Shown here piece by piece: positions 4,022 through 44,908 of a stretch of DNA of 64,000 bases (its first letter is position 1; every line of letters begins with the position of its first letter). The stretch covers positions 55,366,001 through 55,430,000 of the forward strand of contig OX597828.1 of NCBI GenBank assembly GCA_951406725.2, given 5' to 3'. This DNA comes from Octopus vulgaris. Its lineage: Eukaryota. A model generated the notes under the pieces. The model made no database searches and was not told the DNA's origin. It was given only the letters and a program-made list of their open reading frames with translations. Position numbers and translations under genes: made by a program.

Positions 4022-4228
4022 TTAATCCAAGCATGAAAACACAAAGAGTAAACACAACAACGCGAGGACGTGGGACAAGTATAGTGTTATTGGACGCTCA
4101 GGAAAGAAGGAAAGAAGGAGGTTTAACGTTTCGAGCGGAGCTCTTCGTCAGAAACATAAGAAAAGGAAAGATCCAAAGAAGGGAAGACGGAGGAAAAAAA
4201 ATCGCCAACGGTACACACGCGGTCACAC
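4022..4228 (-). mobile_element. Short Penelope-like terminal repeat / non-autonomous element embedded in (TA)n
   Basis: Homologous to 39340-39525 (caacaacgcgaggacgtgg...gacgctcagg...acgtttcgagc...aatcgccaacg). Flanked on both sides by (TA)n. Contains a hammerhead motif. Confidence 0.6.
4121..4155 (-). ncRNA. Minimal type I hammerhead ribozyme motif
   Basis: Minus strand reads GTTT-CTGACGA-A-GAGC(TCC)GCTC-GAAA-CG-T-T-AAAC: helix I GTTT/AAAC, CUGANGA core, helix II, GAAA, palindromic ACGT in place of helix III, GUU site. Confidence 0.65.
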
Positions 4229-4434
4229 TTTGAATCATATATATATATATATATATATATATATATATACATATATACAATTATGTTTTTAAATGACTTG
4301 CTTCAAGAGTTGCATTCGGTACGATGTGCTTATTTATTTTGGTAGTTTTGACTTAGAGTCCCTCCTAGCGTGTGGCATTTATGTATAGTAATGCCCTCTA
4401 TATAATATATATATATATATATATATATATATAT

Positions 4435-4680
4435 ATGTAAGTAATGTCACATTGGTTGTGTAAATGTTCGTGGCCTGAAATATAGGTACATGTACATTAA
4501 CATAAATGATACAAGTTTATCAATACTGAACTACATAAAGTACCAATAAGTGTGGGGTGCTGTAAACCAGTCTGGCGGTCGCGGAGGTTTTCTTTTTCTG
4601 TTAGTAGATTAGTGCTAACTATAAAAGGTCGGAGAGCATCAGTGTTGGGTAAGCTGGTGTTGTTCCTGTATTACATCTAA
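4435..4680 (+). pseudogene. Highly degraded 5' fragment of a Tx1-type ORF2 (APE endonuclease start)
   Basis: 4435-4477 (atgtaagtaatgtcacattggttgtgtaaatgttcgtggcctga, HIGCVNVRGL) is near-identical to 6493-6536. Remnants of GGG and GKLV motifs follow. Confidence 0.55.
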
Positions 4681-4964
4681 ACATATAAACTAGCTTTTGA
4701 AAATGAAGCGCCCTGTATTCTTTGCTAGATTATAAACATTTGTAGGTGAAGTTTTTGTAAACTAATTACTTGGATAACGATAGACACTGTCAGCACGAAA
4801 ATTAATTAGTGTTAAACTTTAAAGAAATGTTAACAAAATAGTTATGTGGCGGTGGGGAGAAACAAAACCAGCCTATGTCTAATTACGTTTTAATTACTTC
4901 AGGAAGTACACAAGACAGCTCTGGAACATATTTCGGTTTTATGAACACAACAGCCAGAATAGTG

Positions 4965-5110
4965 AAAATGTGTGACCTAGTCGTTCGGGTGTTGCATCCA
5001 CGATGGTAAGAGCGTAGTTTCGATTTCAAGACCAGGCTGTGCCTAGTGTTCTTCATCATATAAGCACTTCATTCCGCTTGGCTTTAAGTTAGTTCTGTCA
5101 GCAAATGGGG
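4965..5110 (+). mobile_element. Degenerate tRNA-derived SINE (family D)
   Basis: A/B-box-like head (tgacctagtcgttcgggtgttgca...gtttcgatttcaagacc). Similar to 54855-54995. Confidence 0.4.
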
Positions 5111-5129
5111 AGGTGAATCCGCAACCCAG

Positions 5130-40991: not shown

Positions 40992-41212
40992 AATTTAGGT
41001 ATAGGATAAAATCTTTATAAGAATTTATCAAGTAGTTTGCGTGAAAAACCTCATAAGGGAAAAATTTATTAATCATTCCCTATAAATATATTTATTTATA
41101 TTAAGGGTATTACTATATATAAATGCCTCACGCTAGGAGGGACACTTAAACTCAAAACTTTAAGAGTCCCGCCTAGCGTGAGTCATTTATGTATAGTAAT
41201 GCCCTTAATATA
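40992..41212 (-). mobile_element. (TA)n-embedded element with a terminal 54-bp inverted duplication
   Basis: Arms 41097-41150 and 41159-41212 (few mismatches). A single arm of the same sequence occurs at 4344-4400. Confidence 0.55.
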
Positions 41213-44108
41213 TATATATAGGTAAAGCCATCAATGAATTCTATTTTTCATGTACTGCATGTCTGAATATACTTGAGCATATTTTTGCAAGCATTAAACA
41301 TATAAACATACATTCTCTCAGCAATATAACTATTAATAGCAGATCTGTGATTTTACCATTTTTTCTTTTGCTACTGTCTAAGATGGCGGTGGTCGGAGAT
41401 TGCAGTTCGCTTTGTTCTTAACACCGCCAATAACCAATACCACAACCGACACCAGCAGCACCACTGCCGACACCACCAGTACCAACAACAACAATATATA
41501 AACCATTACCATCGTCAATATATACATGCCATCCCCACTCAGATTACCCCTCCCACTTATCTTCAGCACTCTTATTGATTTTTATTATCTTTTTTTCTTG
41601 TTATTTTATTCTCAAACTTAAATATCCTGTTTTTGTGTGTTATTAAATATGTTTATGATTTAAGGTTAATCTCAACATTTCCGTCTTGAGAAAATAGCTT
41701 TAATTTCCGGTTGCAATTAATGAATTCACCTCAGATTATATCTTCGTTTCCTCTTCTTCCTTCCGTCCTACCTTCTTTCCTTCCTCCTCTGCCACTTTCT
41801 CTTTCTTCTCTCTCTTCTTCTCCAGCATCTCCTCCTCCTCCATCATCATCATCATCATTATCATCATCATCATCTTCTTGTTCTTGTTGTTCTTATTGTT
41901 GTTGTTGTTGTTGTTGTTGTTGTTCTTCTTCTTCTTCTTCTTCTTCTCCTCTTCTTCTTCTTCTTCTTCTTCTTCTTCTTCTTCTTCTTCTCCTCTTCTT
42001 CTTCTTCTTCTCCTCTTCTTCTTCTTCCTCTTTATCTCCTCCTCTTCCTTCTTCTCCTTCACTTCCTCCGGCTCCTTTCTCTTAGTTTTGCTCTGCAGCT
42101 ATTAAATTCTTTCTGGTACCATTTATCATTTTTATGTCAGAATTTCTATGAAAACTATCGCCGTTTAAATCATCATCGCCAAGCTGTTAGAAAACGGGCT
42201 TCATTTCTTTCCTTCTCCTTCTTCCCATTCATTCATTTTCTTTTTTTTTAATCTTGTTTTATTCTGATTTTTCTTTTCCTTTTCCATTTTCTTTTTCTCT
42301 TTCTTTCTTTTTGTTTTTGGTAAAACTCAGCAATTGTGATAATGGTCAATATGACAGCAACATCGAAAAGCAGCGGACTCTGGAATATGAAATGTTGTTT
42401 CAATTTCCGGCTGAAGCAAAATTTGCTTTCATTTAGAACGCTTATACCTTCAGGGTAAATCATGAGTATTATAATGAAAACTGTTACAGGAAGATATATA
42501 TATATATATATATATATATATATATATATATATATATATATATATATATATATATATATATATATATATATATATACACATATATATATAACACACACAT
42601 ATATATATATATATATATATATATATATACATATATATATATATATATATACATACATATATATATATATATATATATATATATATATATATATATATAT
42701 ACATATATATATATATTCATAGATAGGTATATAAATAGAGAACCTGGATAACAGATATATCATCGATATCCTTAATTCTCTCACTACCTCTCTGCCCCTC
42801 TTCTCTCTCTCTCACTCTCCTTTATTTCACAGTGTATTTTCCGTCTTTTATTTTTCATTTATGTTTCTGCTCCTTGAGTCAAATAAAATTCCCTTCTATT
42901 CCTCCTCATTCAATTTTTGTCTTTCTAGCCTCTCCTTTTTTTGTGGGTTCGTCGGATTACAGTACCTAATATATTTACTTGTAATTTGAGGGAGAGTGTA
43001 GATTGTGAAGTGGGTGATATTTGGCTGTTATTTCTAGTGGTTTGTATGATTATATATTAGCTCCATCATTAGCTTCACTATTTCGTTGATATAAAAAAGT
43101 TAATGAGTACATAGAAGCCAGTATTCAGTGTTGCGGTGTATGCCTTAGGACAAAGAAATCAGGTTCTATGCTGGGGGATCGAGAAGGAAATCGTAGAGCC
43201 GAAACTGCGGCTGGCTTATTGTTTCCTCGCTTGTTTTATTCTGTTCTTGCCCTCTTGGTTGAAACAGGAATAAAATATCTCCATCCATGAACGTCACATC
43301 CGGCCTGCTCCTGCGTAGCCATCTAATTCAGGCTGTTTGTATACATCTCACTATCTGTCTCTCTGTCCGCCTGTGCTTGCCTATTTGTCTATTTGCCTTG
43401 CCTGTCTGTCTGTCTTTCTTTCTTGCTTTTTTCTTTCTTTCTCTCTCTCTATATATATCTCTCTATCTCTTTCTTCCTCTCCCAAGCGACTTCTTTAAAA
43501 TCCTCGTGCTGTCGTGTTCACTTAACCTCTGTCACACTCACTTGCCGTCTAGTCCTGATGCTTTGGCTTTGTCCCTTCTCTCGAATATCGAACTGAATAT
43601 CATATATCTAGCTAGTTATTTCTCATTGCATATGTGTGTGCATATGCATGTGATTGTGTGTGTGTGTGTGTTTGTGCATATATGTGTGTGTGTGTTCAAC
43701 TATTATGTGTGTACTTCACATCGGCGCGTTTACGACCAGCAGCCTCATCCCTTGAGCGATTTGTACGATACACTAGAAAACAAGATGTTACTTGTCGTTC
43801 GTTCGACCTAATTCCATTTCCTGAAGACAAAAGGCACCACGTGAGACTCTATTAAAATGCATTGTAACCGATTTTGAGAGAATGAGAAAATGCAAAATTG
43901 CCTCTACTATTTGACTGCTGCTAAATTTCCCTGAAGCATAAAAGACAAAGTTGACATCAGAGAGATTTGAACACACACGCATACACACATATTTACACAC
44001 ACATACGCACATTCACACACACATACACACACACACACACACATATATATATATATATATATATATACGTACATATGCACATATATACGCATAAATGTAT
44101 GTATACCA

Positions 44109-44550
44109 TTTACTCTTACTCTTATATTTGTTTGAGTTATTTGACTACGGCCATGCTGGAGCACCGCCTTTGATCGAACAAATCGACCTTAGCACTTATC
44201 TATAAGCCTAGTACTTATTCTATTGGTCACTTTTACCCAACCGCTAAGTTAGGGAAACGTAATCACACCAACATCGGTTTTCAAGCGATGGTGGGAGGAC
44301 AAATACAGACACAAACACACACGCACGCACGCACGCACACACACACACACACACACACACACACACACACACACACACACTCACACACGACGGGCTTCTT
44401 TCCGTTTCCGTCTTCCAAATTCACTCACAAAGCATTAGTCAGCTCGAGGATATAGTAGAAGACACTTGTCCAAGGTGCCACGCAGTGGGACTGAACTCGG
44501 AACCATGTGGTTGGTAAGCAAGCTACTACCCACACAGCCACTCTTGCGCC
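44109..44550 (-). mobile_element. SINE family B, complete
   Basis: Reverse complement of the head, CORE-like region, internal (CA)n and 3' half. Confidence 0.85.
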
Positions 44551-44702
44551 TATGCATGTATGTATGTATGTACGTATGTATGTACATATGTAGGTATGTA
44601 TGTAGGTATGTATGTATGCATGTCTTTCTGTCTCTGTCTCTGTCTTTGTCTCTCTCTCTCTCTCTCTCTCTCTCTCTCACTATATATATATATATATATA
44701 TA

Positions 44703-44908
44703 TAGTGAGAATTTACCAAAGAAGCAAAATACGAAGACGGGTGTCTAAACAACAAAAAGATGTGTTAGTTTAACGCTCGGAAAGAAAGAAGGTATTTTAC
44801 GTTTCGAGCCTACGCACTTCGACAGAAAGGAACACAGAATTAAACAGGGAGAGAAAATAGTAAAAAGTTTAGTTGTTAGCGATCTATCATGGCGAATACC
44901 GGACAGAG
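44703..44908 (-). mobile_element. Penelope-like short element with hammerhead-like motif (44794-44829)
   Basis: Minus strand reads CTTT-CTGTCGA-A-GTGC(GTAG)GCTC-GAAA-CG-T-A-AAAT. Homologous to 20270-20458. Confidence 0.55.

What the first reader, a model, noticed from the sequence alone, without database searches (positions are those of the whole stretch)
4022..44908. Dispersed ~200-bp elements carrying minimal hammerhead ribozymes
Seen: six related motifs (4121-4155 -, 20329-20364 +, 38014-38049 +, 39188-39222 +, 39427-39462 -, 44794-44829 -). They share the layout helix I / CUGNNGA / extra A / GAGC-loop-GCTC / GAAA / palindromic ACGT / H / helix I'; the 39188 and 44794 copies carry decay mutations. 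Helix I covaries between subfamilies (GTTT..AAAC versus CTTT..AAAG), and the helix II loop varies (TCC, GTTT, TAT, GTAG) while the stem is kept. All lie next to TA-type microsatellites and none has an ORF. Established: Penelope-like retroelements carry minimal type I hammerheads lacking a stable helix III, proposed to cleave as dimers. Inference: an abundant non-autonomous Penelope-derived or retrozyme-like family.
Basis: partly seen in the sequence, partly recalled or inferred. Interest (0 to 1): 0.75.

Follow-up and report, generated by a model that had tools for sequence, protein, structure and literature searches.

The report
Penelope-type retroelement ends carrying minimal hammerheads
These six short repeats are real, and look like the leftover end pieces of a known kind of jumping gene (Penelope-like retroelements) that carries a tiny self-cutting RNA; one subgroup has an unusual change in that RNA's catalytic core that is worth testing.

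Summary
The six motifs are at the stated coordinates. Four fit a minimal-hammerhead descriptor, against none in 200 shuffles. They lie in two repeat subfamilies: A (4121, 39188, 39427, plus a 66-bp 3' fragment at 56660) and B (20329, 38014, 44794). The layout matches the published Penelope-like-element (PLE) minimal hammerhead. The motif is better conserved than its flanks (28 of 30 columns in each subfamily, against 70 of 137 and 92 of 142). 3' ends run into (TA)n 87-104 nt after the cut site, 5' ends vary, and no copy starts at the cut site. Best reading: 5'-truncated or solo pseudo-LTR ends of PLEs. The parent RT/GIY-YIG ORF is not in the window, so that link is inferred. 'Retrozyme' fails: no tandem units. 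All three B copies carry U at A6, a change absent from the 56 published examples I read. Helix I covariation is one base pair, one event. Verdict: new member of a known kind, with a testable core variant. Interest 0.3.

The parts
4021..4236 (-). Subfamily A copy, 216 bp, (TA)n on both sides; hammerhead 4121-4155 with full CUGACGA core; predicted cut after GUU at 4125; 104 nt from cut to 3' end
   Evidence: 5' limit set by eye at the TA run
20272..20454 (+). Subfamily B copy; hammerhead 20329-20364 with U at position 6 (CUGUCGA); predicted cut after GUA at 20360; 94 nt to 3' end at TA
20134..20271 (.). Purine-rich piece between a TA run and the 5' end of the 20329 copy; no relative in the window; reversed, it has the low-G, pyrimidine-rich make-up of the element's sense strand, so possibly an inverted 5' segment (inference from composition only)
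   Evidence: G 0.36 as read, 0.14 reversed; elements 0.12-0.18
37933..38132 (+). Subfamily B copy, 200 bp, TA on both sides; hammerhead 38014-38049 with U6 (CUGUGGA); predicted cut after GUU at 38045; 87 nt to 3' end
39126..39321 (+). Subfamily A copy; hammerhead 39188-39222 decayed (U4C, G12A); 103 nt from site (39218) to 3' end; tail-to-tail with the next copy across one TA tract
39340..39525 (-). Subfamily A copy; hammerhead 39427-39462 with full CUGAAGA core; predicted cut after GUC at 39431; 91 nt to 3' end
44705..44907 (-). Subfamily B copy, part shared with the other B copies; hammerhead 44794-44829 with U6, a helix II mismatch and a broken outer helix I pair; site at 44798; 93 nt to 3' end at (TA)n
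44908..45132 (-). C/A-rich 5' extension of the 44794 copy up to the next (TA)n; probably further upstream sequence of the parent element (not shown by homology; no specific relative in the window)
   Evidence: protein search of one open frame gave only 3 apparent low-complexity hits
56660..56725 (+). 66-bp 3' fragment of subfamily A, no hammerhead, (TA)n on both sides; its alignment to the 39427 copy begins about 36 nt after the cut site

Best explanation
The seven pieces are 3'-terminal remnants (5'-truncated copies or solo pseudo-LTRs) of two subfamilies of an endonuclease-bearing Penelope-like retroelement, most plausibly Neptune-type. Steps: (1) INFERRED: a parent element with an RT + GIY-YIG ORF lies elsewhere in the genome and is transcribed with the pseudo-LTR that holds the hammerhead. 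(2) INFERRED from the literature and the ends: its protein nicks (TA)n DNA and starts reverse transcription about 90-100 nt downstream of the hammerhead cut site, then stops early, leaving 66-430 bp between TA runs. (3) SHOWN: the template was uncut (or rejoined) at this hammerhead, since 6 of 7 pieces span the site and 0 of 7 begin at it. (4) SHOWN: the hammerhead was held under selection while the flanks diverged. (5) INFERRED: it has no helix III of its own and cuts slowly, as a dimer through the ACGU palindrome or with help from the element's protein, to process tandem precursor RNA. The dispersed single copies themselves are mostly inert: 2 of 6 keep the full core and neither has a same-strand partner closer than 5.3 kb.
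For: Layout equals the published PLE consensus 'U-rich NNN CUGANGAH G..C GAAAN palindrome NU H NNN'; Acropora Neptune row has a 4-bp helix II and C-G-U-H like these. Dispersed single motifs and opposite-strand pairs 100-700 bp apart were described as truncated PLEs; 39188/39427 is such a pair. Conservation: 28 of 30 constrained columns invariant in A and in B against 70 of 137 and 92 of 142 flank columns (Fisher p 5.7e-6, 8.9e-4); A-vs-B identity 0.78 in the motif, 0.49 and 0.54 in flanks (shuffled 0.48, 0.49). 3' ends 87-104 nt after the cut; in Anolis Poseidon the cut is 26 nt and RT starts 111-118 nt into the ORF, i.e. 85-92 nt apart, and unprocessed RNA is the main substrate. 12 of 14 ends lie within 8 nt of a (TA)>=3 run, background 4.9% of positions; microsatellite bias is reported for Neptune and Naiad, and Naiads lack canonical hammerheads. 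No terminal inverted or direct repeats (P>=0.20 in 14 of 14 tests) and no Pol III boxes. Forming ACGU/ACGU between two copies adds 3.1-3.7 kcal/mol.
Against: No PLE ORF is joined to any copy: none among 319 frames scanned with Pfam, and one protein search of the longest 5' extension found no clear relative. Five of six 5' homology limits cluster about 60-85 nt upstream of C3, which random truncation would not readily give. The ends used in the TA count were chosen partly by the TA itself; only the three B 3' ends are fixed by homology alone. MITE-like palindromes also sit in TA runs here, so TA is not diagnostic. Helix I is barely formed in predicted ensembles of whole elements (P<=0.12) and the cofold minimum shows the ACGU dimer together with intact helix II in 1 of 6. 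Subfamily B breaks the core consensus. The Fisher tests treat related copies as independent.
Confidence: 0.72

Rival explanations
1. The roughly 200-bp units are self-standing non-autonomous elements (SINE-like derivatives of a PLE pseudo-LTR, or monomers shed by retrozyme arrays elsewhere), with their own promoter and fixed ends, moved in trans by a PLE protein.
For: Four of six copies are 186-216 bp and five 5' homology limits cluster. Animal retrozymes derive from pseudo-LTRs and leave dispersed monomers. Non-autonomous PLE derivatives exist in Chlamydomonas.
Against: No tandem or partial second unit at any copy. 38014 and 44794 share sequence upstream of where 20329 stops, and 44794 runs about 225 bp further without repeating the 3' part, pointing to a longer linear parent. 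A 66-bp 3' fragment shows truncation. No Pol III boxes (recalled consensus).
Confidence: 0.2
2. The hammerhead fold is kept as a protein-binding or regulatory signal for the element's RT and no longer cuts, at least in subfamily B (a reading about function, compatible with PLE origin).
For: A6U in 3 of 3 B copies while 28 of 30 constrained columns stay fixed. A6C lowers activity strongly in Mg2+. Hammerhead-dead mutants did not impair Poseidon insertion in vitro and no RNA-seq reads ended at the site. 8 of 9 Xenopus dimer elements did not cleave.
Against: Position 7, the loop and H17 vary while H17 is never G, the pattern expected of selection on cleavage. The other ten core positions are invariant in B. 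Natural A6C ribozymes still cut, and cut well in Mn2+.
Confidence: 0.25
3. The motif is a chance resemblance inside an unrelated repeat such as a MITE or tRNA-derived SINE.
For: Rfam gives no hammerhead match. Covariation is not above shuffles.
Against: 0 descriptor hits in 200 shuffles; the motif is the only strongly shared block between two otherwise barely alignable subfamilies; it matches published features that were not part of my descriptor's requirements (G10.1-C11.1, U-rich flank); no terminal inverted repeats or Pol III boxes.
Confidence: 0.03

Closest known systems
Minimal type I hammerheads of metazoan Penelope-like elements (Cervera & de la Pena 2014, PMC4209133), closest row Acropora digitifera Neptune
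   Same: Short helix I, CUGANGA plus one extra base, G10.1-C11.1, GAAA-C-G-U-H with no helix III, U-rich flank, several sequence families per genome, mostly single dispersed motifs, occasional opposite-strand pairs.
   Different: Subfamily B has U6; all 56 rows of their alignment have A6, though their search required the catalytic boxes. Helix II is 4 bp here, at the short end. No cephalopod row is in that alignment. No ORF link shown here.
Poseidon of Anolis carolinensis (PAc; Frangieh et al. 2024, PMC11167929)
   Same: Hammerhead about 90 nt upstream of the insertion's 3' end; AT-rich target; uncut RNA is the template.
   Different: In PAc the ORF begins in stem II; no ATG lies in stem II in any of the six copies here. 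PAc prefers ATT; these copies sit in (TA)n.
Animal non-LTR retrozymes (Cervera & de la Pena 2020, PMC7229834; Li et al. 2026 preprint 10.64898/2026.07.22.740005)
   Same: Non-coding, 150-450 bp scale, low GC, type I hammerhead, pseudo-LTR ancestry.
   Different: Retrozymes are tandem arrays, classically with canonical hammerheads, and give circular RNA; these are single, minimal and variably truncated.
Natural A6C hammerhead of phage Bcep176 (PMC3088659, PMC7151607)
   Same: A natural substitution at core position 6.
   Different: C rather than U; a single phage ribozyme with its own helix III, shown to prefer Mn2+; nothing is measured for A6U here.

Membership tests
PLE minimal hammerhead (Cervera & de la Pena 2014) | Core CUGANGA ... 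GAAA ... UH | tested here: met
   Subfamily A only: 4121 and 39427 (2 of 3; 39188 decayed)..
PLE minimal hammerhead (Cervera & de la Pena 2014) | Core CUGANGA in subfamily B | tested here: not met
   U at position 6 in 3 of 3. B is therefore filed as a variant that resembles the family, not as a conforming member.
PLE minimal hammerhead (Cervera & de la Pena 2014) | Extra base between positions 9 and 10.1; G10.1-C11.1 pair | tested here: met
   6 of 6 for both.
PLE minimal hammerhead (Cervera & de la Pena 2014) | No helix III; palindromic 15.2-16.2 | tested here: met
   ACGU in 6 of 6.
PLE minimal hammerhead (Cervera & de la Pena 2014) | Short helix I with compensatory changes across families | tested here: inconclusive
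   4 bp in 5 of 6, 3 bp in 44794; one compensated pair, not above shuffles.
PLE minimal hammerhead (Cervera & de la Pena 2014) | Self-cleavage as dimer or with protein help | not testable with these tools
   Only energies computed.
EN+ Penelope-like element (Neptune/Poseidon) | RT + GIY-YIG ORF joined to the hammerhead repeat | tested here: not met
   None in this window. Expected for truncated copies, but it means the pieces are not filed as PLEs proper; the rest of the genome could not be searched.
EN+ Penelope-like element (Neptune/Poseidon) | Fixed 3' ends, variable 5' truncation, occasional 5' inversion | tested here: inconclusive
   3' end shared by 3 of 3 B copies, within 13 nt in A; lengths 66-428 bp, but five 5' limits cluster; inversion suggested by composition only.
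EN+ Penelope-like element (Neptune/Poseidon) | Insertion in AT-rich or microsatellite targets | tested here: met
   12 of 14 ends within 8 nt of (TA)>=3, background 4.9%; ends partly chosen by eye; not diagnostic.
Animal non-LTR retrozyme | Two or more consecutive units each with a hammerhead | tested here: not met
   0 of 6; nearest same-strand motifs 1,174 bp apart and of different subfamilies.
Animal non-LTR retrozyme | Canonical type I hammerhead (6-bp helix I, short helix III) | tested here: not met
   Helix I 4 bp, no helix III.
Animal non-LTR retrozyme | Expressed as circular RNA | not testable with these tools
   No RNA data.
MITE or tRNA-derived SINE | Terminal inverted repeats, or Pol III A and B boxes | tested here: not met
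   Inverted ends P>=0.20 in 7 of 7; boxes (recalled consensus) 0 of 7 on either strand.

The most novel reading that the evidence does not exclude
Subfamily B is a whole PLE lineage that spread with a U6 hammerhead (CUGUNGA), a natural core variant I did not find in print (searches; the main paper on these variants, Lunse et al., could not be read) and one that CUGANGA descriptors cannot see, so such ribozymes would be undercounted across animals. It either cuts only with its element's protein or with Mn2+, or has become a pure RT-recognition fold; either outcome would bear on why PLEs keep hammerheads. In addition, the roughly 200-bp copies with clustered 5' ends may be cDNAs running from the internal RT start site in the 5' pseudo-LTR to the transcription start, which would be genomic evidence for the internal initiation seen in vitro for Poseidon.
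Probability: 0.3. Interest if true: 0.55.

Novelty: new member of a known kind. Interest (0 to 1): 0.3.

Why it matters
The class is known: thousands of dispersed minimal hammerheads per genome, tied to truncated PLEs, were reported in 2014. What this window adds is modest. It gives a dense example (7 pieces, 1,613 bp, 2.5% of the window), probably from a lineage not in the published alignment. It also gives a natural pair of sister subfamilies, A6 and U6, that makes the open question of whether PLE hammerheads must cleave directly testable. If U6 marks a large family, current descriptor searches miss it.

Tried and rejected
Rfam: 0 matches at gathering score in the window, 0 at E<=10 for 4040-4235; the E<=1 scan showed 150 of 205 rows, none a ribozyme, mostly microsatellite-driven miRNA models. 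Exact pattern scan of 185,579 prokaryotic genomes: 0. No eukaryotic genome collection was on hand, and the metagenome and viral contig collections stayed unchecked. Pfam: 723 stop-to-stop frames of 45 aa or more, 355 kept after a low-complexity filter, 318 of these scanned plus one extra frame (37 alternative frames inside LINE copies left out); hits were LINE and Tc1 pieces and weak sub-threshold matches, no GIY-YIG or PLE-type RT; frameshifted remnants under 45 aa would be missed. Profile search with one of the two open frames of 44890-45132: 3 hits, multi-stretch and apparently low-complexity, not followed up. Flank-only blastn recovered the same loci plus the fragment and no extra full copy (the 4121 downstream query was cut to 37 nt by a script error, fixed for statistics but not re-blasted). 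Conserved blocks outside the hammerhead: the 5' block is not significant between A and B (best P 0.09); the 3' block GAGCGT..CTAAY reaches P<=0.05 in 4 of 9 pairs, uncorrected and non-independent; a first test of this was swamped by T-runs. A long-range helix between these two blocks appeared in some predicted folds of A copies but was not tested and is not claimed. Short motifs from the elements were not found as a specific match in the supplements of Craig 2021 (long cells cut and lines wrapped, so weak) or of the O. vulgaris repeat paper (it holds no sequence library). Host identity: not established; an exact look-up and a homologue search with the LINE ORF2 gave no informative name.
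Full report
OBSERVATION. All six motifs are at the reported coordinates. A descriptor for the minimal type I hammerhead with the strict core CUGANGA finds 2 of them (4121, 39427). With CUGNNGA it finds 4 (adding 20329, 38014) and nothing else in 64 kb, and both forms gave 0 hits in each of 200 shuffles. A covariance model built from the six finds no further copy with filters off. Rfam does not recognise the motif.

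TWO SUBFAMILIES. blastn groups the copies as A (4121, 39188, 39427; 70-75% identical over about 150-230 bp) and B (20329, 38014, 44794; 77-84%). Between A and B the hammerhead is 78% identical on average, while the 5' and 3' flanks are 49% and 54%, against 48% and 49% for shuffles. Within each subfamily 28 of 30 constrained hammerhead columns are invariant, against 70 of 137 flank columns in A and 92 of 142 in B (Fisher p 5.7e-6 and 8.9e-4; copies are related, so these overstate). Flank-only searches return the same loci plus one 66-bp 3' fragment at 56660-56725 and no full copy lacking the motif, so the excess is not just an effect of picking copies by the motif. Covariation is thin: 1 of 8 pairs, one event, matched by 397 of 500 shuffles.

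All three B copies have U at core position 6. Since they differ by 16-23% overall, the change was most likely in the active parent rather than arising three times (inference). All 56 rows of the published PLE hammerhead alignment have A6, though that search required the catalytic boxes. The one natural change at this position that I found in print is A6C in phage Bcep176, slow in Mg2+ and favoured by Mn2+. Two searches for a U6 variant found nothing relevant. Lunse et al. (RNA Biol, PMC5785218), the main paper on these variants, was not held, so novelty of U6 is open.

ENDS AND CONTEXT. In hammerhead sense, 3' ends run into TA repeats 87-104 nt after the predicted cut; the three B copies stop at the same homologous base. 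5' ends vary: a 66-bp fragment, four copies of 186-216 bp, one with a 138-bp unrelated piece joined on, and one that may run 428 bp (limits set by eye). 12 of 14 ends lie within 8 nt of a (TA)>=3 run, against 4.9% of positions. The ends were partly chosen by the TA, and MITE-like palindromes also occupy TA runs here, so this supports but does not prove a PLE endonuclease. No copy is tandem, has terminal repeats or carries Pol III boxes. 39188 and 39427 lie tail-to-tail on one TA tract and are only about 70% identical, which I read as two insertions at one target. No copy begins at the cut site: 6 of 7 span it and the fragment's match starts about 36 nt after it. No PLE protein was detected among 319 frames scanned (355 of 723 frames passed a complexity filter), and a profile search with one frame of the 44794 extension gave 3 apparent low-complexity hits that I did not follow.

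MECHANISM. Most likely (0.72) these are 3'-terminal remnants of endonuclease-bearing PLEs. Cervera & de la Pena describe the same features, and read dispersed single motifs and close opposite-strand pairs as truncated PLEs. In Anolis Poseidon the cut lies 26 nt and the RT start 111-118 nt into the ORF, genomic ends fall on the RT starts, the ribozyme cuts only with the protein present, and uncut RNA is the main substrate. The 87-104 nt spacing and the uncut sites here fit that. Craig et al. report microsatellite bias for Neptune and Naiad and no canonical hammerhead in Naiads, which points to Neptune; this clade call is inference. Folding agrees with a ribozyme that cannot act alone: helix II forms in the isolated motif (P 0.84-1.00 in 5 of 6), helix I is weak (0.01-0.54, and at most 0.12 in whole elements), and pairing two ACGU palindromes adds 3.1-3.7 kcal/mol, though the cofold minimum shows that pairing with intact helix II in only 1 of 6. 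Shown: the motif, its conservation, the ends, the uncut templates. Inferred: the parent ORF, the targeting, dimer or protein-assisted cleavage.

RIVALS. A self-standing non-autonomous family (0.2) is favoured by five 5' limits clustering about 60-85 nt upstream of the core, and opposed by the longer copy, the fragment and the absence of tandems. The clustering could also arise if RT starts internally in the 5' pseudo-LTR and runs to the transcription start (my hypothesis). A non-cutting role (0.25, about function only) is favoured by U6, by dead-ribozyme mutants not impairing Poseidon insertion in vitro and by 8 of 9 Xenopus dimers failing to cut. Chance is about 0.03.

MEMBERSHIP. Subfamily A conforms to the PLE minimal hammerhead; B fails at A6 and is a variant. 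Neither is filed as a PLE proper, since no ORF is attached in this window. Neither is a retrozyme, which is defined by tandem units.

HOST. Not established. The microsatellite landscape and SINEs look to me like an octopus genome (recall only); two searches gave no confirming name. If so, PLEs make up 6.83% of O. vulgaris, which would make this density unremarkable. A search for hammerhead + Penelope + octopus gave 5 papers, 4 listed, none describing such ribozymes by title or abstract start; one search was swamped by cephalopod papers and is uninformative.

PAPERS, AS SEEN. PMC4209133: main text parts 1-2 of 4 and supplement parts 1-2 of 3. PMC11167929: parts 1-2 of 4, supplement term search without hits. 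Preprint 10.64898/2026.07.22.740005: parts 1-3 of 5; its supplements were closed and might list relevant families. PMC8557442: passages and supplement term searches. PMC6765202, PMC7151607, PMC3088659, PMC7229834: passages. PMC13282606: passages and supplement rows. Arkhipova 2006 and Lunse et al.: not read, cited through those passages. G12 as the catalytic base is established knowledge, recalled.

VERDICT. Real, and a new member of a well-described kind. The part worth a bench test is the A6/U6 pair of sister subfamilies. Interest 0.3.

Noticed in passing
window 7978-13870 (+): Near full-length Tx1/L1-type LINE: zinc-knuckle ORF1 region from 8201 and an uninterrupted 1,149-aa ORF2 at 10132-13581 (endonuclease, RT, zf-RVT; named relative Tx1), with (TATC)n on both sides. 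It looks like a microsatellite-targeting LINE and may be recently active.
   Followed up: partly
window 33358-34528 and about 18335-18552 (+); older piece about 5560-7780: 5'-truncated relatives of that LINE; the first two also have (TATC)n on both sides, which supports targeting of that repeat.
   Followed up: partly
window 39126-39525: The tail-to-tail A copies would fold into a roughly 400-nt imperfect hairpin in either direction (minimum energy -167 and -158 kcal/mol), a possible double-stranded RNA substrate for editing or silencing if transcribed.
   Followed up: partly
window 20389-20413 (+) and 44745-44770 (-), approximate: In two B copies CTAAY, a pyrimidine run and TTAG follow 25-55 nt after the cut site, resembling a branch point and 3' splice site; absent in 38014 and in A. 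PLE pseudo-LTRs can hold introns.
   Followed up: no
about 15-35 nt downstream of each hammerhead: A short block GAGCGT..CTAAY is shared by A and B (P<=0.05 in 4 of 9 pairs, uncorrected). Its GAGC could pair with the 3' strand of helix II and act as a competing fold or a protein site.
   Followed up: partly
window 41102-41207, 4344-4397, 53272-53501, 52885-53250: TA-flanked palindromic, MITE-like elements: a 106-bp one with a half copy, and a 230-bp one with about 45-bp inverted ends next to scrambled partial copies.
   Followed up: no
window 20860-21258 (-), 31199-31579 (-), 34758-35585 (-): Scraps of a Tc1-like transposase, a LINE endonuclease and a LINE RT.
   Followed up: no
window 23788-23988 and seven other loci; 22236-22427 and two others: Abundant SINE-like repeat families (8 and 3 loci, plus related groups of 6 and 10); 23788-23988 is itself palindromic.
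   Followed up: no
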